In this document: positions 11,660 through 27,758 of the stretch, piece after piece
Layout: every line of letters starts with the position of its first letter
How positions within the stretch are numbered: the stretch's first letter is position 1
Assembly: GCA_965223155.1 (NCBI GenBank)
Contig: CBDCVR010000013.1
Location: 992,001 to 1,056,000 of the forward strand
DNA: 64,000 nucleotides
Source: Candidatus Multivoradales bacterium
GTDB lineage: Bacteria > Acidobacteriota > Thermoanaerobaculia > Multivoradales > JAHEKO01
Reading direction: 5' to 3'
Position numbers and translations under genes: made by a program
Notes under the pieces: model-generated
The model's input: only the letters and a program-made list of their open reading frames with translations
What the model was told of the DNA's origin: nothing
The model's database searches: none

Positions 11660-11681
11660 TGTCCGTTGATCGCGGAGGCCT

Positions 11682-12443: not shown

Positions 12444-12744
12444 GGATGGTCCAGGCGAGTTGTGACTCGCCCGGTGTTGCCGCCGGCGAAGCCGCTCCGC
12501 CGGCGCCTTACGAATGATCTACTGAACCTATCTCCAGCAATCGAAATCGTCAATCCCGCTCTGCCCGGCCTGGAAGGCCTCGCCGCCTTGCCAGATCGCA
12601 CCAAATAGTGCAACATTCGTTAACTCGTTAACGCGTGGCGGGAGTGACGCACGTTGGCGCTGGGCTCGGACGTTTGACCGGCCTAGGGGTAGAGGGCGGG
12701 GTGTCTCTACAGGCGAAACGGCCGGACCGGCAGGAGGGACAGCC

Positions 12745-14799
12745 ATGACGCAATTCCAAAATCCTTGTCGCCGGCTCTTCGGAGCCCTTCTCGTGACCTC
12801 GGTCCTCGGTGTGGCTCCGGCCAGCGGCAGCGACCCGCAGCTCGCTGATCCGCTGCCGCCACCGCTGTCCGAAAGCGAGACAATCCACGAGCGCATCGAT
12901 GTGCACGCGCAGCGGGCGATCGTCAGGCTCTCGCACGGCGCCACCTTCGAGGACCGCGCCACCTCGCGCTATCTCCTGCGTGGCGTCCAGTACGGTGTCC
13001 TGGGCGGCATCTACAAGGTCGATACCCAGGTTCCGGCGTTGCGAGCCCAAAGTCTTGGCCAGGGGTGGTGGACGCTGCTCGACGGGCGTCCGGCCGGATG
13101 CATGCTCGAACCGGCGCACGAGAAGCCCATCTTGATCTTCAGCAAGACCGTGGCGCCGCAGACCGACGCCCTGGCCCAGGCGCTCAAGACCGCTCTCGAC
13201 GAGTGCGGCTTCCGCCGGCTGGACGTTCTCGTGACCCGGGGCGGCTACCCCTGCACCGAGGCCTACGTCACGATCTCGAGCGAGCCCGTGGGGGTCGCCA
13301 ACGATCCGCCCTGCCGCACCTACCCGTCCGGTCTCTGCCGCTTCTACGTTCCCACCGCGATGTACGAGTTTCGCGTCACCTGCAACAGCGAGTCGACCGA
13401 CCCGGTGGGAATCTACCGGGCCGTAGCCCCCGGGGCTGGCGTCCAGACGGAAGCGTTCGATTTCGCCGGGGCTCCCGAGCCATCCACCCCACCGGCGCCG
13501 CCGCCGGCCACACCGCCGGGCACCACTCCCCCGCCGGGCTCACCGCCGGGGCAAACCACTCCGCCGCCACCGCCCACGACCAAGGGAACGCCACCGTCGA
13601 AGACGCCGCCGCCGGCGACTCCGCCTCAGGCGACACCTCCGGCCTACGGTCGCGTTCCGCTCGGCAAGCTGCCGCCGTCGACCAAAGGACCGCCGCCGAC
13701 CCCCTCCAAGCTCCCCCGCACTCGGATCACCCGTCCGCCCAGCCGCCTGCGCCTTCCGGGGCGCACGGCGACGCCGCCGTCTGAACCTCCACAACCTTCG
13801 GAGCCCCCGCCCACGGGAACGCCGCCGGCGTCCGTCGCGGTACGCGACTGCCCGGTCACGCCGGTTCGTGGCGGCCCTTGCTGGACGACCGAAGACGTCA
13901 TCAACTCGGCGATCGACCATCACGCCCAGAGCGCCTTGCTACGTATGTTCGCCGGCGGCGGCGTGCCGGCGGCCGAGGCCTCGCAGATCCTGTGCGCGGC
14001 CAAGGCGGGCGAGCTCGAGGGCGTGTACTTGCCGGACCAGCAGGTCCCGGCGCTCCGCGTCCGCTCTCAGGGCGGCAATTGGTGGGAAATGATTCCGGCC
14101 GGCAGCCATTCGGTCTGCTACCAGCCACCGCCCGACCGGGCGCCGCTGATCGCCTTCAGCAAGCAGATCAAGGACGACCGCGCTCTGGTGGCGATCGCAC
14201 TTTCCAACGCCTGGCACGATTGCAAGCTTCCGCCGACCGCGCCCCGCTGCTACGTCGCGACGATCTCCAAGCCCAAGCCCGAGCTGGTCTGCCCCCCCGG
14301 CACCATCCCGGATCCCGAGGGTGAGGTCTGCGTACCCCAGGTCGTCTGCCCGCCGGGCTCGGATCCGAAACCAGACGGCACCGGCTGCGTCGAGCGCGAG
14401 TGCCCGCCCGGAACGATTCCGGACGGTGACCTCTGCATTCTGGATCTGCCCGGAACGGTGCAGACACCGTGTACGCAATCCGAGATCGAGCAGCAGTTCC
14501 AGCAGAAGACCGACTTCTGCGCCTCGATCAAGTTCGGCCTCGACGCCGCCTGCGGCCTGGGCCAGAGTCCCTGCGATCATCTGCGGCCGGTAAAGTTCGG
14601 CTGCGACGTCTTCGAACGGATCTTCGGCAAGCCCATCCCGGGCGCCAAGCACCCGGCCTGCTCCGAGTCGAACGCCGGCTTCTACAAGAGATGCGTACTC
14701 TCGACCCTCGAGGGCGAACGCAAGACCCTACCCTGCACACTGCCGTCAGCCAGCGACCTGCGCCAGAAGTACGACTCCTGGCCCGGGAAGCAGAAGTAA
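12745..14799 (+). CDS. Secreted multidomain hypothetical protein: two copies of an unrecognised domain, Pro/Thr-rich linker, CPPG repeats, Cys-rich C-terminus
   Basis: GGAGG RBS; signal peptide; internal homology (QVPALR..S.G..WW); CPPGTIPD/CPPGSDP/CPPGTIPD repeats. Confidence 0.8.
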   Translation: MTQFQNPCRRLFGALLVTSVLGVAPASGSDPQLADPLPPPLSESETIHERIDVHAQRAIVRLSHGATFEDRATSRYLLRGVQYGVLGGIYKVDTQVPALRAQSLGQGWWTLLDGRPAGCMLEPAHEKPILIFSKTVAPQTDALAQALKTALDECGFRRLDVLVTRGGYPCTEAYVTISSEPVGVANDPPCRTYPSGLCRFYVPTAMYEFRVTCNSESTDPVGIYRAVAPGAGVQTEAFDFAGAPEPSTPPAPPPATPPGTTPPPGSPPGQTTPPPPPTTKGTPPSKTPPPATPPQATPPAYGRVPLGKLPPSTKGPPPTPSKLPRTRITRPPSRLRLPGRTATPPSEPPQPSEPPPTGTPPASVAVRDCPVTPVRGGPCWTTEDVINSAIDHHAQSALLRMFAGGGVPAAEASQILCAAKAGELEGVYLPDQQVPALRVRSQGGNWWEMIPAGSHSVCYQPPPDRAPLIAFSKQIKDDRALVAIALSNAWHDCKLPPTAPRCYVATISKPKPELVCPPGTIPDPEGEVCVPQVVCPPGSDPKPDGTGCVERECPPGTIPDGDLCILDLPGTVQTPCTQSEIEQQFQQKTDFCASIKFGLDAACGLGQSPCDHLRPVKFGCDVFERIFGKPIPGAKHPACSESNAGFYKRCVLSTLEGERKTLPCTLPSASDLRQKYDSWPGKQK
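14056..14176 (+). repeat. Copy 1 of a ~120-bp near-identical coding repeat (copy 2 at ~15158-15277)
   Basis: cgcgtccgctctcagggcggcaattggtggga...cgggcgccgctgatcgccttcagcaagcagatcaaggacg is shared by two adjacent genes. Confidence 0.9.
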
Positions 14800-14833
14800 G
14801 CAAGGGACGGAACCTGAAAGGAGCTGAACGAGC

Positions 14834-15733
14834 ATGAGAGTCCTTCGAGCCGTATCCACCGTCCTCCCTCTGTGCGCGGGCGCCGTCCTCCTCGCCATGG
14901 CTCTGGTCGCCGTCCCGGCGGCGGCCACGAGTCCTCGGGTCGCGGTCGATCAGTGCGCCGACATTCTTCCGGTTCCGGGCTGCTGGACGACCCAGGACGT
15001 GATCGACCCCCATATCGACTCCCACGCCCAGACCGCGCTCATGGGCATGCTGACGCGAGGCGGAGCCGATGGAGCCGTCGCCTCCGCCATCCTGTGCGCG
15101 GTCAAGCGGCGTCATCTCGAAGGGGTCTACCTGCCCGACCAGGGCGTGCCCGCCCTACGCGTCCGCTCTCAGGGCGGCAATTGGTGGGAGATGATCCCGG
15201 CCGGCAGCCACTCGGTCTGCTACAAGCCGCCGCCCGAGCGGGCGCCGCTGATCGCCTTCAGCAAGCAGATCAAGGACGTCTCGACCGCGGTGGCCGCGGC
15301 CCTCACCTCGGCCTGGACCGACTGCAGCCTGCCGGCCACGGCGCCTCGTTGCTACTTTGCCACCATTACGAAACCACCGACGCCGGTGCCGCCCGGCGGT
15401 GGCGACAGCGGCGGCGGGGACACCGACAACGGCGACAACGGCGGCTCGACCGAGCCTCCGGCCACTGAAGGGCCCGCCACGGTCATCATCGACCTCAAAC
15501 GCGGTGGCGTTCCGTACGCGGGCAAGGCCCAAGTCTTCATTGCGAATCCCGACCATCAGGAGTGGGACGTGGTCACCGGTCAGGTGACGTTCACGGTGCC
15601 GCCCGGTGTCTATAACACCGCGGCGCGCGACTACGGCCTGACCGATTGCAAACTGGGACCCGCCACGCCGATCGTGGTTCGATCGAATGACACGCTGCGG
15701 TTCTCCCTCGAAGTCCCGGAATGCCTGCCCTAA
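14834..15733 (+). CDS. Secreted hypothetical protein with a third copy of the same domain and a C-terminal beta-sandwich-like domain
   Basis: AAGGAG RBS; signal peptide; CWTTQDVID..EGVYLPDQGVPALRVRSQGGNWWEMIPAGSHSVCY..PLIAFSKQIKD. Confidence 0.85.
   Translation: MRVLRAVSTVLPLCAGAVLLAMALVAVPAAATSPRVAVDQCADILPVPGCWTTQDVIDPHIDSHAQTALMGMLTRGGADGAVASAILCAVKRRHLEGVYLPDQGVPALRVRSQGGNWWEMIPAGSHSVCYKPPPERAPLIAFSKQIKDVSTAVAAALTSAWTDCSLPATAPRCYFATITKPPTPVPPGGGDSGGGDTDNGDNGGSTEPPATEGPATVIIDLKRGGVPYAGKAQVFIANPDHQEWDVVTGQVTFTVPPGVYNTAARDYGLTDCKLGPATPIVVRSNDTLRFSLEVPECLP
15158..15277 (+). repeat. Copy 2 of the ~120-bp near-identical coding repeat
   Basis: Matches 14056-14176 with mostly synonymous differences. 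Confidence 0.9.
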
Positions 15734-15769
15734 CCGCAGAAACCAAGACGAAGGGATAGCGGAATCCAC

Positions 15770-18700
15770 TTGGCTCAGCCTGTCCTCAACCTTGGCGTTC
15801 TGCGCCGGCGCCCGCACCTCAGCAGCCCAAGCGATCCCAGTGATCGCGGCGGCAAGGGCGGGCTGACCGCGCCGGAGGACGCGCCCGGAAGGGACGGCGA
15901 TCTCTCCCGGCGAACCCTTCTGGGACTGGCGGGAGCGGCCACGGTCGGGCTGTCGCCGGCCGCCAGAGCGATCGAGACCGCGGCGCTAGGCCGCTACCGT
16001 CTGGAGCACGATCGGCAGCGGGCCATGTTCTCCCTGGGGACGGGCCACGTCTGGACGCTCGACGCCCGCCGCTTCGGCGGCCGGCCGTCTCTCGAGGTCG
16101 ACCGAACCGGCGGCGAGGTCCGCCTGACTCTGTCCGGCGCCCTGTTCCCGGGCACCCAGATTCCGGCGGATCTGGTTTGCCGGCTTGCTCCGGGAACCCT
16201 GGCCACTCGCATGGAAATCGCGTTCGGGCTCTGCGATCTCCGCGTGACCGCTGCCTTCGAGCCCTGGCTGGCGGGACTCGAGAAAGCCCGCGGCGTCCTG
16301 CGGCGAGCTGCGCGGGCGGAGGTCGCCGGCGACGGCTCAACCCTGGCGCTGGCGGCCCGCGGCGCCGCGACCTTCGGTCCGGATTGGATCCTGACTCTGG
16401 AAGGCACCGCGGTCGGCGAATTGGCTCTCGGCGGACCTGCTCACGAAGTTCGGCTGCCCGGAGACCGCATCGAGCTCGCTTTGCTGGCGGCCGGCACCCC
16501 CAGCTTGGTCGGCCGGCCGGCGCCGAAGCGCTGCCTGGTCACGATCGAGCGCGGCGACTCGGACTGGGATGCCGGCGTCTTGCTGCCCGCGCCCCCGGCC
16601 GGCCGGCTCGCGTGCGCGTCCGCCTCCGCCAGTCTGGTCCACGTCGAGTCCGGTTGCGATGACAACGTTTCGAAGACCGCGGCCCTCCTGGTCGAGCTTG
16701 ACGCCCTGACCTTCGCGCCGGCCGCGGGCCTCGCGACCCCGGACGGCGAGGTCTTGCAGATTCCGTTAGAAGACGTCCGCTATGGGCGCGTCCTGAGCGG
16801 CGCGGGCGCGGGAGAAGCCGCGCTATCGGCCCGTTTCGCACCTCGAGCGGTGTGGCTTGCGGCCGGCGACACCCGGCTCCAGATCGGCGGCCGATCGCGA
16901 GCGAGCGAAGAGCGCTTCGAGCTTCTGGGCACAGCCGAGGGCTTTCGCGAGATCCGGTGTCAACCCAGATTGTTCGGCATCCTGGCGCCGCTCGCCGGCG
17001 GCAGCGCCGGACTCATGAGGCCCCGAGCCGAAGCCCGGCTGGCCTTCGCCGGACTCGGCCGTCCGGGCCTACTGGCGCCGGCTGAAGCGACTGCCGGCGG
17101 CACCCAGCAGCGACGAGTCACGCCGCGGGTGATACGCCCTCAGACCCAACCCGAGGATCAAGCGACCTCGGACCGGCCCACCCTCGACGCTCGGCCGCGA
17201 GCCATGGACCGCGCCGTCTTGACGATCGCGGACGATCGTCTGACCCGCCTACGACTGCCTTCGAACCTGATTGTGTCGGTGCTCCGCTCCCGGGACTTCC
17301 TGGCCCTCGATTTCGAATTCGTCAACCTGCGGCTCGAGGCTTCGGCGCCCAGGCGGCTGGTCCGCTCGGACGCCGCCAAGCCGGCCTACGTGATCGTTCA
17401 CTTCCCGCCCCAGAGCGTGTACGAGCAGGCCTTCTATGAGGTCAGCGGATCGAGCGATGGCGTCGACTCGGACGGCAAACCCGTGCCCAGCGAGTCCGGC
17501 GGCAGCGAGCGGCTGCCGACGCCGCCGGTTCACTCACGGCTGTCCGGACCCAGCCGTCTCTCCTTCCGGCTGCCGCGCATCGTCAACGAGCTTCCCTACA
17601 CGCTCGAAGGATTGCTCGAAGCCTGCTTGACGATGCCGCTCGCCGTCGGCCGCAACGCGCGGCCCCCGGATCCACCGGTCCGCTCCGGGCAGCTCACCAG
17701 AGCCCTGGCGCTCCTGAGCGGCGCCACCGCGACGCGGGGCACGGTCGGGAGGGCCCCGGCCGGAACCGCGCGGGCGATCTCGGGCTCTCGGCGTGGAGCG
17801 GCTTCGACCGGATCGGCAGCCGCGAGGCTGAGGCAGCCCGGCAACAGGATGGACTCCACCGCCACTTCCACCGCGGCCCCGGGAGCCATCGGCCTGGTTG
17901 CCGGTCCGCCGGCCGAGCCGACGCCCGTCGAGACCGCGATCGAGATGCCCTATCGACTGATTCTGTCTCCGCACGGCAAGTCGGCCTGGTCGCATTCGGT
18001 CGACACCGGTCCGAGCCAGGAGGGCAGCGGCCGGCACGAGCTCTGGCACACGCGTCTGGCGGTCCGCGCCGGCGACGGCTCGGCCGACGAGCGCAACCGC
18101 CACTACCGCAGCGTGCGGGCGATCTGGTCGCCGGACTACAACGCCGCCAGGCCGCCCGACCATCAGAACCTCCCTTTCCGCTCGACCCTGGACGCGCGGG
18201 ACCGGCACGAGGTCGTGGCCTTGAGCTCGGACTTCTCGATGGCCGGATGGAAGCCGCTGCCGATCGCGGTCGAGCGCCTGATGCTGACCTCCCTCGGAGC
18301 CTGGCTGGACAGCCGCGGCGCCTGGGAGCCGCCGGGGTCGCTCGAGGTCGAGGAATGGAAGCATCGCGCCACCATGGCCCGCGACCACTACGTGCGGGTC
18401 GTCTACAAGGGCTACCTCTTTCCCTTCCGCCATCGCGCGTCGCTGATCAAGGTTACCCAACGCAAATTCCAGAAGATCCAGGACGGGCCGCAAGCCGGAC
18501 AGATCGCGGCCTTCCTGCGACAGCGCATGTTCATCGTGGTGCGCGAGCCCGAGCTGACCTATGACTACGCAGTGGCGAGCGGCGGCGCCCGCTGGGAACG
18601 CGAGAATCCTTTCAAGCGGGTGCGGATCACCACGCTCACCACGCCGGACCTGCTGGATCCCAACAGCCCCGAGTGCGAGGCCGCGCCCGGCTTCGGGCAG

Positions 18701-20467
18701 CAAGGCTTCTGGCCCAAGACCGCAAGCGGCCGCTTCGCCTTTCATCTGGTGGCCTGGGACTGGCAGGGACGCAAGAGCGACTTTTCGGCGCCGCTCATCT
18801 TCGTCGGCGCCTCCCGGGCCAGCAAGAAGAGCGATCTGGACGCGATCCAAGGAGGCTACGACGCCGAGACCGACGGCGGCGAGCCGACAGCCCAGACCTT
18901 CTTCGACGGCCAGAAGATCGCCTACGCCGCTCCCAAGGGAGCCAGCGACGAGAACACGGCTCTCGAGAGCGACAGCCTCACTTTTACCAGCCGCAACCAC
19001 GACGCGGCCGCGGGCGAGCCCGGCTTCTTCCCGGCGCTGAGTGAGGCGGAGGTCCGGATCCCGGCGGTGGACGCCCTGACCGGAGGCGGCCAAGCCTCCC
19101 GCATCGAGTACAGCCCGGTTTACGTGGACAACGGCTTTGCCGCGCCCACCAACGTGAGCGAGATCTTCGTCCAGATCAAGGGCGACTCGGGCACGCCCCT
19201 GCGCTTCGACGGGGACCGCTCCGGCGGTGTCGCCACGCCCAATCTGAACATCGCCGGACTGTCGCGGCGGTTCGGCCCGGTGGGCGGCCCCTTCTCCAGT
19301 CCGCCCGATCTCTCCGAGCTGGCCGGCGGCAACTTCGACCCCCAGAAATATTTCGAGGGCGCTGCCGCCAAGATCCTGGGGGGCATCCCGCTCGCCGACA
19401 TCATCAGCAAACAGTTCGGCGACGGCAAGAACGTCCCCAAGATGAGCACCGAGCTGGTCTATCCGGGCGGGGACGAGAGCAAACTTCCCGAAGCGACCCG
19501 GGCCGAGCTGCTCTGGGAACCGGACGTGATCGACGACCCCACGGGCACGTTCACGAAACGGAGCGGAACCAAGTTCCGCCTCAACGCCCGCATCACCCAG
19601 CGCTTCGACGCGGTCGGACAAGAGCCCGACACCGTGGTCGAAGGCGAGCTCACCGACTTCGACATCAACCTGATCCCGGTGGTGACCACCTTCCTGGTCG
19701 TCACCTTCAAGTCCTTCAGCTTCCGTTCCGAGAGCGGCAAGAAAATGGAGGTCGATCCCCAGATCCAGACGGTCGAGTTCGCCGGTCCGCTCATGTTCGT
19801 CAACGAGCTCAAGGACTACCTGTCCGCCGCCGGCATGAGCATCGACATCGGACCGCAGGGCGTCGAAGCGGGCTACTCCGTCGGCCTGCCCGCGATCACG
19901 GCCGGGGTCATGAACCTCCAGAACATCAGCCTCTCGGCCGGACTCAGCATCCCCTTCACCGGCGACCCGGTGCGCCTCAAGTTCGGCTTCTGCGAGCGCG
20001 AGAATCCATTTCTGCTCACCGTCTACTGCTTCGGCGGAGGCGGTTTCGTCGGCCTGGCAGTGGGACTGGACGGCGTCGAGCTCCTGGAGATCGCTCTCGA
20101 GTTCGGAGCCAACGCCTCGCTCGACATCGGCGTTGCCAGCGGCGGCGTCTACATCATGGCCGGGATCTACATCGCCGTCGAGGGCGACGAATGCGCGCTC
20201 ACCGGCTACCTCCGGATGGGCGGCGCGCTCGAGATCCTGGGCATCATCACCTTGTCGCTCGAGTTCTACATGTCGCTCACCTACGAGTCCAAGGGCAACA
20301 AGGTCTGGGGCGAGGCGACACTCACGGTCGAGATCGAGATCGCCTTTGTTTCCGTCCCGGTCGAGATGTCCGTACGCCGCGAGTTCACCGACCCCGAGCT
20401 GCCCAAGTTCAGCGACATGATGACCGACGGTGAGTGGACCGAATATTGCGAGGCGTTCGCGGCATGA
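15770..20467 (+). CDS. Giant (1565 aa) hypothetical protein with Tat-like signal and beta-rich C-terminal region
   Basis: Long ORF with host-like codon usage; SRRTLL motif plus hydrophobic stretch (~15905-15970); alternating hydrophobic strands in the last ~350 aa. TTG start is uncertain. Confidence 0.85.
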   Translation: MAQPVLNLGVLRRRPHLSSPSDPSDRGGKGGLTAPEDAPGRDGDLSRRTLLGLAGAATVGLSPAARAIETAALGRYRLEHDRQRAMFSLGTGHVWTLDARRFGGRPSLEVDRTGGEVRLTLSGALFPGTQIPADLVCRLAPGTLATRMEIAFGLCDLRVTAAFEPWLAGLEKARGVLRRAARAEVAGDGSTLALAARGAATFGPDWILTLEGTAVGELALGGPAHEVRLPGDRIELALLAAGTPSLVGRPAPKRCLVTIERGDSDWDAGVLLPAPPAGRLACASASASLVHVESGCDDNVSKTAALLVELDALTFAPAAGLATPDGEVLQIPLEDVRYGRVLSGAGAGEAALSARFAPRAVWLAAGDTRLQIGGRSRASEERFELLGTAEGFREIRCQPRLFGILAPLAGGSAGLMRPRAEARLAFAGLGRPGLLAPAEATAGGTQQRRVTPRVIRPQTQPEDQATSDRPTLDARPRAMDRAVLTIADDRLTRLRLPSNLIVSVLRSRDFLALDFEFVNLRLEASAPRRLVRSDAAKPAYVIVHFPPQSVYEQAFYEVSGSSDGVDSDGKPVPSESGGSERLPTPPVHSRLSGPSRLSFRLPRIVNELPYTLEGLLEACLTMPLAVGRNARPPDPPVRSGQLTRALALLSGATATRGTVGRAPAGTARAISGSRRGAASTGSAAARLRQPGNRMDSTATSTAAPGAIGLVAGPPAEPTPVETAIEMPYRLILSPHGKSAWSHSVDTGPSQEGSGRHELWHTRLAVRAGDGSADERNRHYRSVRAIWSPDYNAARPPDHQNLPFRSTLDARDRHEVVALSSDFSMAGWKPLPIAVERLMLTSLGAWLDSRGAWEPPGSLEVEEWKHRATMARDHYVRVVYKGYLFPFRHRASLIKVTQRKFQKIQDGPQAGQIAAFLRQRMFIVVREPELTYDYAVASGGARWERENPFKRVRITTLTTPDLLDPNSPECEAAPGFGQQGFWPKTASGRFAFHLVAWDWQGRKSDFSAPLIFVGASRASKKSDLDAIQGGYDAETDGGEPTAQTFFDGQKIAYAAPKGASDENTALESDSLTFTSRNHDAAAGEPGFFPALSEAEVRIPAVDALTGGGQASRIEYSPVYVDNGFAAPTNVSEIFVQIKGDSGTPLRFDGDRSGGVATPNLNIAGLSRRFGPVGGPFSSPPDLSELAGGNFDPQKYFEGAAAKILGGIPLADIISKQFGDGKNVPKMSTELVYPGGDESKLPEATRAELLWEPDVIDDPTGTFTKRSGTKFRLNARITQRFDAVGQEPDTVVEGELTDFDINLIPVVTTFLVVTFKSFSFRSESGKKMEVDPQIQTVEFAGPLMFVNELKDYLSAAGMSIDIGPQGVEAGYSVGLPAITAGVMNLQNISLSAGLSIPFTGDPVRLKFGFCERENPFLLTVYCFGGGGFVGLAVGLDGVELLEIALEFGANASLDIGVASGGVYIMAGIYIAVEGDECALTGYLRMGGALEILGIITLSLEFYMSLTYESKGNKVWGEATLTVEIEIAFVSVPVEMSVRREFTDPELPKFSDMMTDGEWTEYCEAFAA

Positions 20468-23400
20468 TCGAACGGATCGTCTGGACCGTGCTTCCCAACG
20501 GCATCGCCGACGGGCATCTGCGCCTGTCGGTCTTCATCGCGCCCCAGCTCGACCCGTCACCGCAACCGGCGAAGCTGGCCACGTTTGCCAACTGGCTGGA
20601 CTGGCCGGCGGTGGTGGCGGGCCTCGAGTTTCAGGTCTCGTTCGGCTCGGCCTCCGGTACGGCGGCCACTGTTGCGGGTGTCCTCGACCCGGCCAGCTCG
20701 GCACCCGACTCGAACCTCTGGAGCCGGCTCTTCGGCGCCGACACGCCGCTTGCGGTCTTCCAGCACAAGAAGCTCGACAAGCGGGTGATCCGGTCCTTCC
20801 CCGCCGCCAACATCGTCTCGTATCTCGAGAAGCCCTACCGGGCCTGCGCGGTTGACAGCGCGACCCGGACGCCGCCGATTCACATCCTGGCCGATCCCGA
20901 CAGCGGCTTCGGCCGTATCGTGCGTCCCGAGGTGCTGCGCCGGTTCGCGGCCGTGGATCGCGACGCGGCAATGATGCGGGCCGGTTCGGCGACCGGAGCC
21001 ACCGCGCGCTCTGGCGCGCGCTCAGACCCTGGGCGGAGCCGCGCCTCGGCCCGAACCGGCGGCGCGCGCCGAATCGTGGACGCCGAGACCCAGACTCGGT
21101 TGATCGCCGACCTGCGCCGGGACGTCGCCCGCGAGCTCGAGCCCAAGTTCTCAGGGCGGAAGTTCATCCGCGCGGCACCGGTGGATCCGGAAAACGACTT
21201 CCTCCAAGCCCGGCTCTTCCAGCTTCCCAAGCGGACCAAGCGGCTGCCGGACCGGATTCAGCTCCCGGACATGGATTTCCACCGCCAGCTCTCGATCCTG
21301 GGCCAGCACCCGGAACTGCTACGACGGACCGGGCTGGTCGTCGACCTCAGGATTCCCCTCAGCGGCCCCGGGGCGCCTCTGGGCCTCGCCGGCCAGGGGC
21401 AGGTATGGCTCTCTCTCGCCTCGCAACCCGCGGGCGCGGCCTGCGAGTTTCCCCGCACCGAGTACGCCTTCAACCCCGAGCTCCCCGGGGGCGCGGCCTT
21501 CCACGCCCGTCCCGGCGCCGGCAGCGACCTCGCCAACAGGCTTCTGGCCGCCGGCGGAAAGCGTTTCGAGGTGCTCCAGATGGACGTAGACGGCGCCGCC
21601 CAGAAAGCGGTGCAGCTCGCCGACAACATCTACCGCACGATGTCGCCCCGGCACCGAACGACGGGCTCGGCCGAAACCGTATCGATGCCGTCGCTGCGCT
21701 CGGCCGGTCTGTCCCTGGTCCGCACCGGCCGTGCCGAGCTCTTGCACACGGCCTTCATTCGGGCACGGAGTCACCGCGAGGCGATCAAGACTCGTGCCCC
21801 CGTTTCACTCTTCGCCGAGGACCTGATGCGAGGTTACCGGGTGGACGTCTTTGACGGTTCAAACCCGGGCGGTGGTGCCTGGCGCTCGCTGTGCCGCCGG
21901 CTGGCCAGCTATACCTTGACCGACGACGATCGTCCGATCGCGGTCCAGGACGAGGAAGGCTGGGCGGCCACGGCAACTACCGAAGCCGCAGCCGCAGAAG
22001 CCTCCGAAGAACGCGACCTCTACGTCCAGGAGTCGCTCTTCCGCTGGAGCGGTTGGAGCCTGGTCACGCCGCGACCCGGCAAGCTCCTGGACGACAAGCA
22101 GGAGGCGGCCCGCGCCCGCCACCAGCCGGGCACCGGCCTGCCCTTGCTGGTCGAAACCCGAGCGGCGCCCGGCAGCTTGCCCAAGCTTCGCTTCGGAGCC
22201 GCCTACCGGCTGCGTGCCCGCGCCGTCGACCTCGCCGGCAACAGCCTGTCGCTGGACGACGCCGACCGCCTGCCCGAGACCGTGGCCAACCAGACGGCAA
22301 CCTACGCCGTCACCTACCGCCGGCACGAGGTCATCACGCAGCCGGTTCTCCGGCTCCGCCGTACCCTCGACGACTCTGGACCGGGCGAAGGCATGGAGCG
22401 GCTGGTTCTACGATCCTTCAACAAGGGAGCGGTGCAACCGGAGGAGCGAGTGGCGGATTCCGAGCTCTCTCCCGACCGCAACGAGCGCCACGTCGCGCCG
22501 CCGGGCACCGGTCAACTCACCGCTGAGTGTCACGGCCGCTTCGACGGTCCCCAGGGCCCGAGCCCGGCCACCTACGCCGCCATCGTCGGCCACGAGGGAG
22601 AGTTCGACCGGGACGTGTACAGCGAAGATCGTCTCGAAGTTCCTTATCTGGCAGACCCGCCGGCCCGCGGCGCGGCGTTCGTGGGATTGCCGGGCTCGAA
22701 GCCGCCGGACAACACCGTGACCCTTCATCGCGCCGACGGCCGGGTCGAATCCTGGCGGCTGGTACCCGAGCCCAGGACCCCGGTCTCCGTGGTCCAAGTC
22801 GAGTACGGCCCCTCGCCCTGGCCCGACAACGAGCCTTTCCGGCTACGCGCGGTCGCCACGCAGACCGGCCGCGATCCGGAATGGGATCCCAACCAGCGCA
22901 TCCTGACCGTCTTCGTCCGCCCGGGCGAGACGGTTCCGGTGCGCTATTCGTCCTTCCCGGCGACCGAGGACCTGGGGGCCATGGCTGCCTGGCAGTGGAT
23001 CCAGGACGCCGGCCGCGTTCCCCAGCTCGAGGGCCGCGTCCTGGCCGGGCTGCATTGGATGCTCACGCCCTACCGCGAGCTGACCCTGGTCCACGCGGTC
23101 CAGAGGCCCTTGGTCAAGCCCGAGTTTCAATCGCTTGCCAGCCACCGCATCGAGGGCCAGACCAGCGCCGATCTGGAAGACCGGATCCCATTGAGCGGCA
23201 AGAGCACCTCGCGCCTGGACGTCCGGAGCCGCTGGCTGGAGCCGGTGGACGAGGGAGAGGCGCCCCGCTGGGTCGAGCGGGCGGCCCATGCCTTCGACAT
23301 GACCATCGAGGCGCACGAGACCGAAGCCAAGTTCGGTCCCCACCGCAGGCTGACGCGGCTGCCGGTCCGGCAGGTTCTGGAGCGCCCGTCCCTGGCCAAA

Positions 23401-24981
23401 GCCGCAAAGCGCGTCGAGGCGGTGCCACCCGAGGTCCGAGTACTGCGGCCCGAGGCCACAGCCCCGCGTGCCCGCAGGCAAGTGCAGCGCAGCGGTACGT
23501 TTCGACCGATCGGCCGGGTCGAGCGCGCCCGCCCGGAACAACGGCGCCTGCCGGCCCAAGCCGTCTCGCTGGACGACGCCGAGATTCAAGCCCGCACCCG
23601 CACCCTGGGCCGGCACGAGTTCGGGGACACCAAGCACCGGCCGGTGACGTACACGGCCGTGGCCTCGTCCCGCTATCGCGACGATCTGCCTCTGCGCTCC
23701 GAAGACATCGACAAGGCCGAGGCCGAAGGCGGCGACCATCGCGTCACCCGGCGCTCCGAGCCGATCACCATCGACGTCCTGAGCGCCGCCCGGCCGGCGG
23801 CGCCCGCGGTGGCCTATGTCATTCCGACCTTTGGCTGGGAGTCCGCGAGCGCGGGGGCCGAGCGCACCAGCACTCGCCGGGGCGGCGGTCTCAGGGTGTA
23901 CCTCGAGCGGCCCTGGTTCTCCTCGGGCGAGGGCGAGCTTCTGGGCGTTCTGGTGCCGCGGCAGTCCGCGCGAGCTCTCAATCTGGCGACCGCGCGGCGC
24001 ACGATGAGCCGGCGCGCCACCGGGGTCGATGCCGCCGAGCTCGACGCCTACCTCACCCACTGGGGCATCGACCCGATCTGGGGGACGAACCCGCCCGGCG
24101 GTGCCTCGCCGGGGCTGTCGAGCTTCCGCAACGCGGCCGCCACCGAGTCGGAGGTCGCGCTGGTCGAGATTCCGGACGCCCGCGTGGCGGTGGCCGGCTT
24201 CACCGTTGGCGCCCGCACCGACGGCGGCGGATTCACCGGCTACGACGCGGAGCGAGGTCTCTGGTACGCCGACCTCGAGATCGACCCGGGCGAGTCCTAC
24301 TTCCCCTTCATTCGCCTGGCTCTTGTCCGCTATCAGCCCAAGTCGATCGCCTGGAGCGGCGGCGACCTCAAGCTGTCCCGAGTCGTGATCGCGGACTTCG
24401 CCCAGCTCGCTCCGGACCGCACCGCGACCATTACCCAGCGCTCGGCCACCGAGCTTTCGGTGACCGTCTCAGGCGTCACCGCCAAGGAGTCCGGCGAGCA
24501 GAAGTTCGGAGCAGTGGCCAGCGTGCGCAGGCCCGATCTCGAACGGGCCGCCTCGGCGCCGTCGCTCCGAAGCTCCGCCACCGCCCGCGTCCTCCGGCCG
24601 CCGACCGACGTCCAGGCGCCGGTCGCGGGCCGGCGTCCCTCGATCGTAGCGGGTCCCGAGATCCGGGTGCTGCCAGCGGCCAGCACCGGCGGCAACAGCG
24701 TGGAGGTGAGCCTCGAGACGCTGGTACCCGGCGGCAGCGATCTGGAGTGGATGCCGGTGCCCGACTCGACCGTCGAGCTCACGCCGGGACCGGCCCTGGG
24801 CCGCCGCGCCAACTGGCGCGGCACGGTGCCGCTCCCCGAGGCCCGCGGCGCCGGACGCTACCGTCTGGTCATCAAGGAGTACGAGTGGTTCGTGGTGGAC
24901 GGCCCCGACGTCCAGGTGGGCAACGAGATCCGCAAGCCGACCGCTCCGCGCTTGGTCTACGCCGACGTTCTCGAGATCTAA
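20464..24981 (+). CDS. Giant (~1505 aa) hypothetical protein, translationally coupled to the upstream giant
   Basis: ATGA overlap at 20464-20467; FN3-like strand YRLRARAVDLAGN; no signal peptide. Confidence 0.85.
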   Translation: MIERIVWTVLPNGIADGHLRLSVFIAPQLDPSPQPAKLATFANWLDWPAVVAGLEFQVSFGSASGTAATVAGVLDPASSAPDSNLWSRLFGADTPLAVFQHKKLDKRVIRSFPAANIVSYLEKPYRACAVDSATRTPPIHILADPDSGFGRIVRPEVLRRFAAVDRDAAMMRAGSATGATARSGARSDPGRSRASARTGGARRIVDAETQTRLIADLRRDVARELEPKFSGRKFIRAAPVDPENDFLQARLFQLPKRTKRLPDRIQLPDMDFHRQLSILGQHPELLRRTGLVVDLRIPLSGPGAPLGLAGQGQVWLSLASQPAGAACEFPRTEYAFNPELPGGAAFHARPGAGSDLANRLLAAGGKRFEVLQMDVDGAAQKAVQLADNIYRTMSPRHRTTGSAETVSMPSLRSAGLSLVRTGRAELLHTAFIRARSHREAIKTRAPVSLFAEDLMRGYRVDVFDGSNPGGGAWRSLCRRLASYTLTDDDRPIAVQDEEGWAATATTEAAAAEASEERDLYVQESLFRWSGWSLVTPRPGKLLDDKQEAARARHQPGTGLPLLVETRAAPGSLPKLRFGAAYRLRARAVDLAGNSLSLDDADRLPETVANQTATYAVTYRRHEVITQPVLRLRRTLDDSGPGEGMERLVLRSFNKGAVQPEERVADSELSPDRNERHVAPPGTGQLTAECHGRFDGPQGPSPATYAAIVGHEGEFDRDVYSEDRLEVPYLADPPARGAAFVGLPGSKPPDNTVTLHRADGRVESWRLVPEPRTPVSVVQVEYGPSPWPDNEPFRLRAVATQTGRDPEWDPNQRILTVFVRPGETVPVRYSSFPATEDLGAMAAWQWIQDAGRVPQLEGRVLAGLHWMLTPYRELTLVHAVQRPLVKPEFQSLASHRIEGQTSADLEDRIPLSGKSTSRLDVRSRWLEPVDEGEAPRWVERAAHAFDMTIEAHETEAKFGPHRRLTRLPVRQVLERPSLAKAAKRVEAVPPEVRVLRPEATAPRARRQVQRSGTFRPIGRVERARPEQRRLPAQAVSLDDAEIQARTRTLGRHEFGDTKHRPVTYTAVASSRYRDDLPLRSEDIDKAEAEGGDHRVTRRSEPITIDVLSAARPAAPAVAYVIPTFGWESASAGAERTSTRRGGGLRVYLERPWFSSGEGELLGVLVPRQSARALNLATARRTMSRRATGVDAAELDAYLTHWGIDPIWGTNPPGGASPGLSSFRNAAATESEVALVEIPDARVAVAGFTVGARTDGGGFTGYDAERGLWYADLEIDPGESYFPFIRLALVRYQPKSIAWSGGDLKLSRVVIADFAQLAPDRTATITQRSATELSVTVSGVTAKESGEQKFGAVASVRRPDLERAASAPSLRSSATARVLRPPTDVQAPVAGRRPSIVAGPEIRVLPAASTGGNSVEVSLETLVPGGSDLEWMPVPDSTVELTPGPALGRRANWRGTVPLPEARGAGRYRLVIKEYEWFVVDGPDVQVGNEIRKPTAPRLVYADVLEI

Positions 24982-25058
24982 GTCCAGGCCAACCTGCTTG
25001 CCGGAGACCGCGAGCGACGCCGACGATCGAATCGGCCTCGAGCCGAGCGCCGCCCACG

Positions 25059-25898
25059 TTACGGACAGGTCCAGAAGGCGCCGGTGTCCGTAATCGGTTC
25101 GAACTGGTGGTTGCCCGGGTTGTCGTAGGTCCGCGCGTCACCGGTCAAGGTATCGAGGATGGTCACCTCGAACTCGACGTTGGTGGTCGCGGCGGCGAAC
25201 ACCCAGAAGTTGGAGAAGGCCGGATCGCCGCAATGATCCAGAACCTTGACCAGGAGCTCGGTGGTGAGCGGGAAGAACTGGAAGGTCGCCGAGTCCCGGC
25301 CGGAGCTATCCACGAAGAGAGGCCGCACCGTACCGTCGAAGGGATCTTTGAACTCGGCGTCGACCTGGAACCGGCCGCCGCGCAGGCAGGCGGTCGTGTC
25401 GGACGCCTGACAGGGTGGCGGCGGCGTCCCGATCGTGCAATGACAATCCAGCGAACTGATCCTCTTGCGGTTCAAGAGATCCACCTCGCCGAAGAAGAGG
25501 GATTGCGTTCCAAGGACCGCACTCAGATCGAACTCGGCCGCGAAGTAGCCGTTGCCCCGAGTCCTGCCCCGCGCCGAGCCGAGCGGCATTTCGGTCCCGA
25601 ACGCGTCCACCGCGGTGCCTTCTAGATTGACGACCACGCCTCTACGAGCCTTACCCTGATTGACTGCCTGGCAGGAACAGCGGGCCATGGTGGCCGTCAC
25701 GTTGGACCCACCCGCCAGGAGCAACCCGTCTGCCACTTCGAACTCGCTCAAGAATCTCTTCGCGGGCACGGATTCCGGACAGGCTAGCTCGAGACCAACG
25801 TGCACCGGCAAGGCCTCGTCTCCCCAGCCCGGAGCCGCTACGACAAGAACCATCCAGGCCGCCATCCCCGCCGAGCGCAACTGCAATCTTCCAATCAT
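25059..25898 (-). CDS. Secreted hypothetical protein with Cys-bounded C-terminal domain typical of Thermoanaerobaculia proteins
   Basis: AGGAGAG RBS; signal peptide; C..CLRGGRFQV..ELLVKVLDHC..FWVFAAATTNVEFEVTILDT.TG..Y.NP..DTGAF.TCP. Confidence 0.75.
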   Translation of the reverse strand: MIGRLQLRSAGMAAWMVLVVAAPGWGDEALPVHVGLELACPESVPAKRFLSEFEVADGLLLAGGSNVTATMARCSCQAVNQGKARRGVVVNLEGTAVDAFGTEMPLGSARGRTRGNGYFAAEFDLSAVLGTQSLFFGEVDLLNRKRISSLDCHCTIGTPPPPCQASDTTACLRGGRFQVDAEFKDPFDGTVRPLFVDSSGRDSATFQFFPLTTELLVKVLDHCGDPAFSNFWVFAAATTNVEFEVTILDTLTGDARTYDNPGNHQFEPITDTGAFWTCP

Positions 25899-26058
25899 CG
25901 TGACTCTCCTTCGGGCGACTCTTCCGTTGTCTCGACCCCACTTCCTTACACCAGGTATTACCATGTAGACTTGGGGGCGAGCAACCGCTTCGAGCCGGCC
26001 GGTCCTTGACTCGCGCTGCCGATCGGCGAGCGGGAGCGGCGAGATCCAAACGCAACCG

Positions 26059-27093
26059 ATGCCCCGAAGCCCCCTACTCGAGTCGCCCGAAACAATCCAA
26101 GGAATCGGCGAGGTCTACTCCGCCCGTCTCGGCGAGCTGGGCCTGACGTCGCTGACCGATCTGCTCCGGGCCTCGGCCGGCTGGGTCGCCGGGTACCTGG
26201 GTGTGGATCCCGAGCGGGTCGAGGCCTGGCAAGCTCAGGCAATCCTGCTGCGCTTGGACGAGACCGACCCCGACATTGCCGAAGCGCTGGTGGACGCCGG
26301 GCTCGATTCGACCACAGCGGTGGCCGACGCGGCTCTCTCGACTCTCGAGGGCGCGATGGCCGACGCGGTCGAGGCTGGACGGCTGGCCGAGGCGCCTTCG
26401 ACAAGTCGCCTCTCGACTTTGCACCGGGACGCGACCGCCAAGAAGGGGACCGGGGTGGTCGCCGGCAGCGTGACCCACGACGACGACCAGCCGGCCGCCG
26501 AGGTCGTCGTGTCTTGCGGCGGCACCTGGACCCGTACCGACGAGGACGGCGTCTTCGTGCTCGACGCGGTGCCCACGGGCAGCCACCGCCTCAGCGTGAC
26601 GGCCGAGGGCCGGCCCAATGCCAACCTCCAGATCTCGACCGCCTCCGACGAGGTTGCGGTCAGCCTGGCGATCCGAGTGCAGCGGACGCCGGGGAATCCG
26701 GCGCCCAGTCACGACGAACACCAGGGCGTGCTGGTGCGGATCGCCCGCGGCGCCGAGCTCCGGCTCGAGACCGTCCAGCTCGACGAGCTGCCGGCCGATA
26801 CCTACGTCATGGTGCGCAACATCGCCGGCCACGGCTCGACCCGGCTGATCGAGCTCTACAAGACTCAGACCGGCGGCGACATCGTGGTCCGGCGAGTCTA
26901 CGTCGATCAGAGAGAGCTCCCCGAGGGCTCCAAGGTGGGGGTCATTCTCAAACGCGTCGCCGGTGCGTTCGAAGTCACCGAGCTCAGCGTCGAAGACGTG
27001 GCCCGCCAAAAACTGGAGGCGATCCTGGGACCGCTCACCTTGGAGAGATCGGCGACCCGGCAAGTGTCGGCGTTGAGCCTCAACCAGGCCTGA
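26059..27093 (+). CDS. DUF4332-like helix-hairpin-helix protein with carboxypeptidase-regulatory-like domain
   Basis: IQGIGEVYSARLGELGL..DLL and AEALVDAGL (HhH); GSVT..TRTDEDGVFVLDAVPTGSHRLSV. Confidence 0.65.
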   Translation: MPRSPLLESPETIQGIGEVYSARLGELGLTSLTDLLRASAGWVAGYLGVDPERVEAWQAQAILLRLDETDPDIAEALVDAGLDSTTAVADAALSTLEGAMADAVEAGRLAEAPSTSRLSTLHRDATAKKGTGVVAGSVTHDDDQPAAEVVVSCGGTWTRTDEDGVFVLDAVPTGSHRLSVTAEGRPNANLQISTASDEVAVSLAIRVQRTPGNPAPSHDEHQGVLVRIARGAELRLETVQLDELPADTYVMVRNIAGHGSTRLIELYKTQTGGDIVVRRVYVDQRELPEGSKVGVILKRVAGAFEVTELSVEDVARQKLEAILGPLTLERSATRQVSALSLNQA

Positions 27094-27094
27094 C

Positions 27095-27718: not shown

Positions 27719-27758
27719 CTGCAGAGTCCATGCGCGTGTGCCTGAAGCCGAAGGGCCT

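What the first reader, a model, noticed from the sequence alone, without database searches (positions are those of the whole stretch)
15770..24981. Translationally coupled pair of ~1500-aa unknown proteins; only the first has a Tat motif
Seen: ATGA coupling. Protein 1 has SRRTLL plus a hydrophobic stretch, motif-like blocks (HFPPQ, ETAIEMPYRL, ELWHTRL, RDHYVRVVYKGYLFPF) and a Gly-rich amphipathic beta C-terminus ending WTEYCEAFAA. Protein 2 has no signal peptide and has beta-sandwich-like blocks (YRLRARAVDLAGN, GLRVYLERPWFSSGEGE, YFPFIRLALVRYQP). Both have Arg/Ala-rich low-complexity inserts. From recall (unverified), similar adjacent pairs occur as hypothetical proteins in scattered phyla. 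Inference: a 1:1 complex exported folded by Tat hitch-hiking. The beta-rich tail could form a lipid-binding groove or membrane-inserting sheet, suggesting lipid transfer, a pore/toxin or a surface scaffold.
Basis: partly seen in the sequence, partly recalled or inferred. Interest (0 to 1): 0.85.

Follow-up and report, generated by a model that had tools for sequence, protein, structure and literature searches.

The report
Unknown giant two-protein export pair
Two adjacent genes encode very large, beta-rich proteins of no known family that always occur together in many bacterial groups, probably lock into one complex, and here seem to leave the cytoplasm on a single twin-arginine export signal.

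Summary
P1 (15770-20467, 1565 aa) and P2 (20464-24981, 1505 aa) overlap in ATGA, and only P1 has a Tat-type signal (SRRTLL, hydrophobic stretch, ARA).

Neither protein matches Pfam, NCBIfam, PADLOC or PDB sequences. Foldseek gives only generic or local hits.

Both belong to large families of unnamed proteins. P1 core finds 4613 cluster representatives. A P2 gene follows P1 on the same strand in 75 of 80 genome loci. In one class sample the same 13 of 151 genomes hold both, adjacent each time. None of 40 relatives of this genome has the pair.

A complex prediction supports binding of the P1 C-terminal beta region to the N-terminal half of P2 (ipSAE 0.65, best control 0.00). The amphipathic tail therefore looks like a subunit interface, not a free lipid groove.

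The RR motif is conserved in about half of the P1 relatives (38 of 80 loci, 63 of 120 proteins). P2 never carries a signal (0 of 120).

Best reading: an obligate heterodimer, exported here by Tat with P2 as passenger, acting outside the cytoplasm as a binding scaffold. Function is unknown. At 324 kDa it would be over twice the largest known Tat cargo.

The parts
12745..14799 (+). Accessory gene, 684 aa. Sec-type signal peptide and two copies of a ~140-aa Cys-containing domain of no known family. Probably the first gene of the operon.
   Evidence: Translation. No Pfam, PADLOC or PHROGs family. The same domain occurs in 4 tandem genes after P2 in L002 and in 4 before P1 in L064. GC3 is 0.84.
14834..15733 (+). 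Accessory gene, 299 aa. Sec-type signal peptide and one copy of the same ~140-aa domain. Ends 37 nt upstream of P1.
   Evidence: Translation. Only 4 relatives of 164-524 aa in 5.8 billion proteins. tblastn.
15770..20467 (+). P1 gene: 1565 aa, 167 kDa precursor, 160 kDa after the predicted cleavage.
   Evidence: 278 relatives. 4613 cluster representatives.
15785..15805 (+). Conserved N-terminal motif LNLGVLR (family pattern LNLxALR) at the start of an unusually long n-region.
   Evidence: Found in 46 of 120 P1 proteins. Of the 43 proteins that have both this motif and RR, the motif lies 32-33 residues before [ST]RR in 30 (40 residues in this window).
15905..15970 (+). Twin-arginine signal core: SRRTLL, h-region GLAGAATVGLSP, c-region AARA, with predicted cleavage ARA|IE after residue 67.
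   Evidence: TatC is present in the genome.
15977..17119 (+). P1 N-domain (residues ~70-450). It is facultative in the family.
   Evidence: Present in about 75 of 119 protein relatives and 31 of 80 loci. Not folded here.
17237..20464 (+). P1 core (residues 490-1565), present in all relatives and almost entirely beta.
   Evidence: AlphaFold2 model has pLDDT 81.5 and pTM 0.69.
17717..17893 (+). Arg/Ala/Gly/Ser-rich low-complexity insert of P1 (residues 650-708), predicted disordered.
   Evidence: pLDDT 30-39 at core residues 161-219. Lower homologue coverage.
19550..20386 (+). P1 C-terminal amphipathic, Gly-rich beta meander (residues 1261-1539, about 16-18 long strands). Predicted docking surface for P2.
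   Evidence: DSSP. Local porin/LptD-like Foldseek hits. Interface residues.
20408..20464 (+). P1 C-terminal helical tail ending EWTEYCEAFAA, nearly invariant to the last residue. It makes the tightest predicted contacts with P2.
   Evidence: W1067, Y1070, A1073, F1074 in core numbering. (expected error 1.8-2.6 A to P2 residues 531-539 and 566-574).
20464..20467 (+). ATGA: the P2 start codon overlaps the P1 stop codon.
   Evidence: In the 75 loci, the gap is 30 nt or less, or the genes overlap, in 64.
20464..24981 (+). P2 gene: 1505 aa, 164 kDa, pI 9.2, no signal peptide.
   Evidence: A 1193-aa homologue was modelled with pLDDT 87.4.
22045..22191 (+). P2 residues 528-576 (FRWSGWSLVTPRPGK ... 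LPKLRFG). Invariant segment predicted to clasp the P1 C-terminal tail.
   Evidence: Invariant W528, G530, W531, S532, R537, L572, L575, R576. Contacts.
20911..21138 (+). Arg/Ala-rich low-complexity insert 1 of P2 (residues 150-225).
23311..23598 (+). Arg/Pro/Ala-rich insert 2 of P2 (residues 950-1045). By rough position it falls at the variable site where some relatives carry a Laminin_G_3 domain.
   Evidence: Coverage drops to 31-54 of 119. Laminin_G_3 lies at 821-977 of P0192 and 844-993 of P0196. The correspondence of sites is judged by position only, not by an alignment.

Best explanation
P1 and P2 are the two subunits of an obligate, cofactor-less, almost all-beta heterodimer. It is encoded by a self-contained two-gene module that moves horizontally among bacteria.

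Proposed mechanism:
1. P2 is translated by coupling to P1.
2. Its N-terminal half wraps the amphipathic beta meander and the invariant C-terminal tail of P1 while both are still in the cytoplasm.
3. In this genome P1 carries a twin-arginine signal with a long conserved n-region and P2 carries none. The assembled ~324 kDa complex is therefore most likely exported to the periplasm by Tat, with P2 as passenger.
4. The signal is then cleaved after ARA.
5. Outside the cytoplasm, the P2 array of Ig/MG-like beta sandwiches serves as the binding part. Relatives insert lectin-like, Ig-like or peptidoglycan-binding modules there. The two upstream Sec-secreted paralogues are probably partners or clients.

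Shown by computation: pairing, co-inheritance, the form of the signal, the folds, and an interface that passes its controls.
Inferred: export, co-export, order of assembly, and the binding or scaffold role.
For: Pairing and co-inheritance:
- P2 lies directly downstream on the same strand in 75 of 80 loci. Three of the other five stop at a contig end. The genomes of the remaining two hold P2 genes elsewhere.
- The P1-P2 gap is 30 nt or less, or the genes overlap, in 64 of 75 loci.
- In one class sample the same 13 of 151 genomes hold P1 and P2, adjacent in all 13.
- Pairwise identities of P1 and P2 correlate at r = 0.948 over 57 pairs, reached by 0 of 999 permutations.
- No other neighbouring gene family is present in more than 11 of 80 loci.

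Binding:
- Three runs gave ipSAE 0.69, 0.62 and 0.65 (median 0.65), against a best of 3 controls of 0.00. In the tool's calibration this mark was reached by 58 of 80 solved complexes and 2 of 110 mismatched pairs.
- The runs gave 432-483 contacts. Partner pLDDT was 45-65. The tool reports that the runs agree in at least 10% of their contacts. My own alignments were used, so the calibration holds only roughly.
- The tightest contacts join two nearly invariant segments.

Export signal:
- SRRTLL, h-region and ARA are present, and TatC is in the genome.
- S or T precedes RR in 59 of the 63 Tat-like P1 proteins.
- The motif also occurs in forms that lack the N-domain (18 of 49 loci).
- None of 120 P2 relatives has an RR motif or a hydrophobic N-terminus.

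Location outside the cytoplasm:
- P2 relatives carry PG_binding_1, Laminin_G_3 (two cases) and Big_3_5 domains.
- An Atlas cluster near P2 has PG_binding_1 on 42% of its members, at score 0.76, which is a lead only.
- The P2 homologue model is a string of beta sandwiches. It matches A2M/complement MG arrays and FN3/Ig arrays (probability 0.9-1.0) but with TMq about 0.1.
- The accessory genes here, in L002 and in L064 all have Sec-type signal peptides, and all three P1 proteins have RR motifs.

Precedent: hitch-hiker export is cited in PMC9251779 and PMC13673990 (passages seen).
Against: - 42 of 80 loci have no Tat-like motif on P1 by my own regular expression, which is not a trained predictor. 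Several have too few upstream codons for any signal, so the heterodimer does not need Tat in general.
- Two P2 relatives end in an FHA domain, which is usually cytoplasmic. One of them appears to share a contig with a signal-less P1, judged only by equal contig length.
- Mature P1 alone is 160 kDa and the pair is 324 kDa. The largest natural Tat cargo named in PMC13673990 is a little over 140 kDa.
- The TatC comparison is uninformative. TatC was found in 75 of 79 genomes. All 4 without it have motif-less P1, which by my arithmetic has about a 0.07 chance.
- The complex was predicted on fragments: P2 1-680 and P1 1250-1565. The partner's own fold was uncertain in one run.
- The P2 fold comes from a homologue about 36-39% identical in local alignments, not from the window's own protein.
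- No expression data were found.
Confidence: 0.5

Rival explanations
1. Latent pore former. P2 masks the hydrophobic face of the P1 Gly-rich amphipathic beta meander. On a trigger sensed by the variable modules of P2, the meander is released and inserts into a membrane, either of a competitor or predator (a toxin) or of the cell itself (abortive infection).
For: - The only confident local fold matches of the P1 tail are membrane beta barrels: V. cholerae OmpT at probability 1.0 and TMt 0.29, and LptD at probability 0.4-0.77. Porin and autotransporter beta domains match in BFVD.
- The strands alternate polar and hydrophobic residues, and FGGGGF-type segments are highly conserved.
- The distribution is patchy and horizontal. 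None of 40 relatives has the module. It is on 22 plasmid records, including Bacillus cereus-group megaplasmids. Some genomes hold several copies.
- P2 has swappable binding modules.
Against: - No pore-forming toxin chain is among the 50 listed Foldseek matches, and no defence family hits in PADLOC.
- No conserved immunity or regulator gene lies nearby.
- The tail is predicted to be buried in a very large interface, which looks permanent.
- TM-scores are low, so a closed barrel is not established.
Confidence: 0.15
2. P1 alone is exported or anchored by its RR signal. P2 binds it only in the cytoplasm, as a giant holdase or assembly factor, or acts separately, and is not co-exported.
For: P2 has no signal. 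The pair at 324 kDa exceeds known Tat cargo sizes. FHA-ended P2 relatives exist.
Against: - P2 relatives carry peptidoglycan-binding, lectin-like and Ig-like modules, which make sense only outside the cytoplasm.
- The predicted interface has more than 430 contacts and uses invariant residues of both proteins.
- A 1500-aa beta-sandwich array is unlike known Tat chaperones (that comparison is recalled).
Confidence: 0.13
3. The complex works in the cytoplasm in most or all hosts, and the RR segment is not an active export signal here.
For: Half of the family lacks any signal. FHA fusions exist. The n-region is unusually long at 45 residues.
Against: - The motif has the full S/T-R-R-x-[FL]-[LI] form followed by a mildly hydrophobic stretch and A-x-A.
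- It recurs across phyla with and without the N-domain.
- The operon's accessory genes are Sec-secreted.
- The extra domains of P2 relatives are mostly extracytoplasmic in type.
Confidence: 0.1
4. Lipid-transfer bridge of the AsmA/TamB or LptD kind, with the P1 beta sheet forming a hydrophobic groove.
For: Weak local Foldseek hits to LptD, microsomal triglyceride transfer protein (probability 0.60) and P47 (probability 0.38). The strands are amphipathic.
Against: - No AsmA, TamB or DUF748 Pfam hit at E up to 1.
- No such chain is among the 50 listed matches, and TMq is 0.10 or less.
- The family occurs in records labelled Bacillus, Streptomyces and Chloroflexota. That many of these lack an outer membrane is recalled.
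- The sheet is predicted to be covered by P2.
Confidence: 0.04

Closest known systems
Tat hitch-hiker enzyme pairs: [NiFe]-hydrogenase small/large subunits, DmsAB, formate dehydrogenase alpha/beta, PaoABC
   Same: - One subunit carries the twin-arginine signal and the adjacent, co-translated partner has none.
- Assembly before export is implied.
- The carrier has a long n-region with a conserved motif. The comparison with hydrogenase small subunits is recalled and was not tested.
   Different: - No cofactor-binding family or Cys-cluster motif: 0 Pfam hits, and only 12 and 4 Cys residues.
- No dedicated chaperone gene is conserved nearby.
- The cargo would be 324 kDa, against a little over 140 kDa.
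- Half of the family has no signal at all.
Alpha-2-macroglobulin / complement C3-type MG-domain proteins
   Same: The P2 homologue model aligns over about 1000-1140 columns with A2ML1, A2M, C3 and C5 as a chain of beta-sandwich domains, at probability 0.75-0.96.
   Different: TMq is about 0.1 and rmsd 44-59 A. There is no A2M or MG Pfam hit and no CxEQ thioester motif. No helical thioester domain is evident in the secondary structure.
Large single-chain outer-membrane beta barrels (porin OmpT, LptD, SlpA, SprA)
   Same: Long antiparallel amphipathic hairpins in the last ~300 residues of P1. The local Foldseek probability reaches 1.0.
   Different: - TMt is 0.29 or less.
- The signal is Tat-type, not Sec-type.
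- The C-terminus is a helix ending AFAA, not a beta-signal.
- The family also occurs in Bacillus and Streptomyces records.
- The sheet is predicted to pack on P2.
TcB-TcC / Rhs / teneurin beta-shell proteins
   Same: Two adjacent genes for large all-beta proteins with a very large mutual interface. These chains appear among the weak Foldseek hits.
   Different: Probability is 0.10 or less and TMq about 0.05. There are no RHS_repeat, SpvB or other Pfam hits. No toxin domain is detectable.

Membership tests
Twin-arginine (Tat) signal peptide substrates | S/T-R-R-x-F-L-K-like motif at the n/h boundary | tested here: met
   P1 has S46-R-R-T-L-L. In the family, S or T precedes RR in 59 of 63 Tat-like proteins.
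Twin-arginine (Tat) signal peptide substrates | Mildly hydrophobic h-region followed by a c-region with A-x-A | tested here: met
   GLAGAATVGLSP then AARA|IE. The maximum 13-residue Kyte-Doolittle mean is 1.71. No trained predictor such as TatP or SignalP was available.
Twin-arginine (Tat) signal peptide substrates | Host encodes the translocase | tested here: met
   TatC (PF00902) scores 225 bits at G000:C15.
Twin-arginine (Tat) signal peptide substrates | Export depends on Tat and on the RR pair | not testable with these tools
   Needs fractionation in tat+ and tatC- cells and an RR-to-KK variant.
Tat hitch-hiker pairs | Partner subunit lacks any signal of its own | tested here: met
   None of 120 P2-family proteins has an RR motif or a hydrophobic N-terminus.
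Tat hitch-hiker pairs | The two subunits bind each other | tested here: inconclusive
   The prediction supports binding but does not show it. Median ipSAE is 0.65 and the best control 0.00, on fragments.
Tat hitch-hiker pairs | The partner reaches the far side of the membrane only with the carrier | not testable with these tools
   Needs localisation of P2 with and without P1.
Outer-membrane beta-barrel proteins | Closed transmembrane barrel, Sec signal, C-terminal beta-signal, restricted to diderms | tested here: not met
   The signal is Tat-type and the C-terminus is helical. TMt is 0.29 or less. Family members are on Bacillus and Streptomyces plasmids.
AsmA/TamB-like lipid transporters | AsmA/TamB/DUF748 sequence families or a beta-taco fold | tested here: not met
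   0 Pfam families at E up to 1. None among the 50 listed Foldseek matches.
Alpha-2-macroglobulin family | MG/A2M Pfam domains, CxEQ thioester, helical thioester domain | tested here: not met
   0 Pfam hits. No CxEQ. Resemblance is only at the level of generic beta-sandwich arrays.
Tc toxin TcB/TcC and Rhs proteins | RHS/YD repeats, SpvB or Rhs core domains | tested here: not met
   0 Pfam and NCBIfam hits. Foldseek probability is 0.10 or less.
Known anti-phage defence systems (PADLOC-DB 2.0) | Match to any model of the library | tested here: not met
   0 families at E up to 1 for P1, P2 and both accessory proteins.

The most novel reading that the evidence does not exclude
The pair is a new kind of Tat cargo: a cofactor-free ~324 kDa heterodimer, more than twice the size of the largest known natural substrate. 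Its carrier subunit has a dedicated n-region motif (LNLxALR, a fixed 32-33 residues before RR) that holds back export until the signal-less partner has docked. The same machine, with or without the signal, is spread by horizontal transfer through thousands of bacterial lineages. In the boldest form, P2 masks a membrane-active beta sheet of P1, and the pair is a latent pore former.
Probability: 0.3. Interest if true: 0.8.

Novelty: categorically new. Interest (0 to 1): 0.62.

Why it matters
The two families are large. P1 alone has 4613 clusters at 50% identity. They occur in many phyla and on plasmids of culturable bacteria (Cupriavidus metallidurans CH34, Rhizobium, Streptomyces, the Bacillus cereus group).

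If the Tat reading is right, the pair sets a new upper size for folded-protein export. It would also give a cofactor-free system for studying how Tat checks assembly. If the pore reading is right, it is a new class of membrane-active agent.

Either way there is a testable heterodimer model with named contact residues.

Tried and rejected
Database searches that found nothing:
- Pfam, NCBIfam and PADLOC gave 0 hits. PHROGs gave only E = 0.047 or worse.
- PDB sequence profiles of both families gave 0 hits at E up to 1.
- The Atlas returned only unnamed clusters for P1 and P2.
- BFVD gave only local porin-like hits.
- Phage records had no match.

Ideas tested and dropped:
- P1 and P2 are not detectably related to each other (hhalign probability 0.4).
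- The HELWH in P1 is not a conserved HExxH: H precedes ELWH in 2 of 119 relatives.
- There is no CxEQ motif.
- A conserved third gene was sought. The largest neighbouring ORF family is in 11 of 80 loci.
- The promoter and terminator scan was uninformative: 0 and 2 sites, at or below shuffle expectation.
- TatC presence does not separate motif-bearing from motif-less loci. It is present in 75 of 79 genomes.

Expression: no RNA holder was listed, and read laying was not run.

Literature:
- Two keyword searches on Tat and large uncharacterised proteins found nothing on these families.
- One search for five family motifs as strings found 0 papers.
- I therefore found nothing in print in the held library. 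Supplements were not seen.

Unverified points:
- Archaeal occurrence. L047 (labelled Methanothrix) is 99.6% identical over 7.2 kb to L046 (labelled Syntrophorhabdus). The neighbours of L041 are not diagnostic.
- The C. metallidurans record carries no annotation in the plasmid table, so no locus tags could be taken to the literature.

Full report
THE GENES

The window holds two long ORFs on the + strand, 15770-20467 (1565 aa, TTG start) and 20434-24981.
- The P1 stop TGA (20465-20467) overlaps an ATG at 20464, giving ATGA.
- From that ATG, P2 is 1505 aa and begins MIERIVWTVLPNG. This is the N-terminus shared by its whole family.
- TTG 15770 is the only usual start codon in frame upstream of the RR motif. 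Homologues begin at the same offset with M....LNL..LR.
- GC3 is 0.86 for both genes, as in neighbouring real genes.
- The Arg/Ala-rich stretches are lineage-specific inserts. P1 650-708 has pLDDT below 50. P2 150-225 and 950-1045 are poorly covered by relatives.

NO KNOWN FAMILY

- Pfam and NCBIfam give 0 families at E up to 1 for both proteins. PADLOC gives 0, and PHROGs nothing better than E = 0.047.
- Profiles of both families find no PDB sequence at E up to 1.
- The Atlas returns only unnamed clusters.
- P1 and P2 are not detectably related to each other.
- Three literature searches found nothing on them: two by keywords and one by five motif strings.

TWO LARGE FAMILIES THAT TRAVEL TOGETHER

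Family size:
- P1 has 278 scored relatives and P2 has 431 among the candidates examined. Every source name shown for them is 'hypothetical protein', apart from one 'apolipoprotein A1/A4/E family' label on P0106.
- A search of 1.84 billion cluster representatives with the P1 core finds 4613 at E up to 1e-3 and 2466 at E up to 1e-30.

Pairing in species genomes:
Of these, 80 loci were fetched.
- A P2 gene lies directly downstream on the same strand in 75 of the 80.
- Of the other five, L040, L063 and L074 end at the contig end. L026 and L030 lack an adjacent P2, but their genomes hold two P2 genes each elsewhere.
- The distance from the P1 stop to the P2 start is 30 nt or less, or an overlap, in 64 of 75 loci.

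Co-occurrence and co-inheritance:
- In a sample of 151 genomes of one class, the same 13 hold P1 and P2, adjacent in all 13.
- Pairwise identities of P1 and P2 over 57 full-length pairs correlate at r = 0.948, reached by 0 of 999 permutations. This shows co-inheritance. It does not show binding, because both proteins also follow the species tree.
- No other gene family is present in more than 11 of the 80 loci. The module is therefore self-contained.

Horizontal spread:
- None of 40 relatives has P1: 4 of the same genus, 20 of the same family and 16 of the same order.
- At the DNA level, only window ~9.2-12.4 kb of the 9-29 kb stretch is shared with the four same-genus genomes.
- The P1 family is on 22 plasmid records: Bacillus 7, Rhizobium 4, Streptomyces 3, Cupriavidus 2 including the CH34 megaplasmid. 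Seven of the records are typed conjugative.
- It is on no phage record.
- On annotated plasmids both genes are called 'hypothetical protein'.
- Three contigs are labelled archaeal. One of them, L047, is 99.6% identical to a contig binned as a bacterium, L046. Archaeal occurrence is therefore unverified.

THE SIGNAL

In this window:
- P1 has S-R-R-T-L-L at residues 46-51, a mildly hydrophobic GLAGAATVGLSP, and AARA|IE.
- The genome encodes TatC.

In the family:
- By my own regular expression (S/T/N/G/K/A/Q, then RR, then x[FLIVMAT][LIVMFAGK], plus a hydrophobic stretch), a Tat-like motif is present in 38 of 80 loci. That is 20 of 31 with the N-domain and 18 of 49 without it.
- It is present in 63 of the 120 listed proteins, with S or T before RR in 59 of those.
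- The long forms also share an N-terminal LNLxALR motif. It lies 32-33 residues before [ST]RR in 30 of the 43 proteins that have both, and 40 residues before it in this window.
- Long conserved n-regions are known to me from [NiFe]-hydrogenase small subunits. This is recalled and was not tested.
- None of 120 P2 relatives has an RR motif or a hydrophobic N-terminus.

Against a general need for Tat:
- 42 of 80 loci have no such motif, and several leave no room for any signal.
- TatC is found in 75 of the 79 genomes behind the loci. The four without it all have motif-less P1. That is consistent with a working signal but not significant.

FOLDS

P1 core (residues 490-1565, alignment of 57 sequences):
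- pLDDT is 81.5 and pTM 0.69, and the model is almost all beta. It ends in 16-18 long antiparallel strands and a short helical tail.
- Against the PDB, TMq never exceeds 0.10. The only confident local matches are membrane barrels: V. cholerae OmpT at probability 1.0 and TMt 0.29, and LptD at probability 0.4-0.77.
- Rhs, TcB-TcC and DDB1 appear at probability of about 0.2 or less.
- BFVD gives the same porin-like local picture.

P2:
- The window's P2 is too long to fold here. A natural 1193-aa homologue (P0143, about 36-39% identical in local alignments) was modelled with the window's P2 in the alignment.
- pLDDT is 87.4. The model has a partly helical N-terminal region followed by many beta sandwiches.
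- It matches A2M/complement and FN3/Ig arrays at high probability but with TMq of about 0.1. That is a generic likeness. There is no CxEQ thioester motif.

THE INTERFACE

I chose fragments on one argument. The extreme C-terminus of P1 and the extreme N-terminus of P2 are conserved to the last residue, and the P1 tail had the lowest confidence when modelled alone.

Result for P2 1-680 with P1 1250-1565:
- ipSAE was 0.69, 0.62 and 0.65, against a best of three controls of 0.00.
- In the tool's calibration this mark was reached by 58 of 80 solved complexes and 2 of 110 mismatched pairs.
- There were 432-483 contacts. Partner pLDDT was 45-65. The tool reports that the runs agree in at least 10% of their contacts.
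- My own alignments were used, so the calibration holds only roughly.
- The tightest contacts join the P1 tail (EWTEYCEAFA) to P2 531-539 and 566-574. These segments contain invariant W531, S532, R537 and L572.
- Most strands of the P1 meander are in the interface.

This supports binding but does not show it. It also offers a simpler reason for the amphipathic Gly-rich tail: it is a subunit interface.

WHERE IT ACTS

- P2 relatives carry extra modules at two variable places. Laminin_G_3 lies mid-protein, by rough position near the window's 950-1045 insert. PG_binding_1, Big_3_5 or FHA lie near the C-terminus.
- Four of these six fusions are of extracytoplasmic type. The two FHA fusions point to the cytoplasm. 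One of them appears to share a contig with a signal-less P1, judged only by equal contig length.
- In the window, two genes just upstream (12745-14799 and 14834-15733) encode Sec-signal proteins with a ~140-aa domain of no known family.
- The same domain, 26-61% identical, fills four tandem genes right after P2 in L002 and four right before P1 in L064. All eight have Sec-type signal peptides, and both of those P1 proteins have RR motifs.
- That accessory family is rare: 4 relatives were found.

READING

Most likely (0.5): an obligate heterodimer assembled in the cytoplasm and exported here by Tat with P2 as passenger. It then acts outside the cytoplasm as a binding scaffold, with the Sec-secreted paralogues as partners or clients.

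The size is the main doubt. Mature P1 is 160 kDa and P2 is 164 kDa. A recent review names a little over 140 kDa as the upper range of natural Tat substrates (PMC13673990, passage seen).

Rivals:
- A latent pore former in which P2 masks P1 (0.15).
- P1 exported alone, with P2 as a cytoplasmic holdase (0.13).
- A cytoplasmic complex with an inactive signal (0.10).
- A lipid-transfer bridge (0.04).

It remains unexplained why half of the family has no signal on either subunit.

VERDICT

No tested feature places the pair in any described family. I rate it categorically new as a protein system, while its export mode would be a known kind taken to an extreme size. Function remains unproven, and interest is moderate to high.

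Noticed in passing
window 12745-15733; L002 17703-20876; L064 1785-8449: A rare ~140-aa Cys-containing domain of no known family, always behind a Sec-type signal peptide, occurs in tandem paralogous genes next to the P1-P2 pair in three lineages. The window has 3 copies in 2 genes, L002 has 4 genes and L064 has 4 genes.
   Followed up: partly
L046 133-7354 and L047 232-7452: A contig binned as Syntrophorhabdus and one binned as Methanothrix are 99.6% identical over 7.2 kb. This is either mis-binning or a very recent transfer between domains. It makes the archaeal occurrence of the pair doubtful.
   Followed up: partly
window ~12400-29000: This stretch has no DNA match in the four same-genus genomes, apart from a 67%-identical match of about 340 bases to window ~25057-25399 in one of them, with a weaker shorter match in a second. 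It looks like a strain-specific island. It also holds a 301-aa secreted protein on the minus strand (25059-25964), a DUF4332 plus CarboxypepD_reg protein (26059-27093), a 207-aa acidic Cys-rich protein (27095-27718) and an AraC regulator (27759-28778). No integrase or tRNA was looked for.
   Followed up: partly
G001 and G002 (genomes of L030 and L026); G045 (L004 and L077): Some genomes carry several copies of the module, and G001 and G002 each also hold an extra P1 gene without an adjacent P2.
   Followed up: partly
L089 9878-14120 (Rhizobium ruizarguesonis plasmid): The P1 homologue is annotated as two CDS (9878-12391 and 12561-14120) ahead of an intact P2. It may be a split or broken P1.
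   Followed up: no
window 22527-25625 (+) and 17534-19621 (-): Long ORFs of 1032 aa and 695 aa lie in other frames across P2 and P1. They are the usual spurious open frames of a 68% G+C genome, not genes.
   Followed up: no
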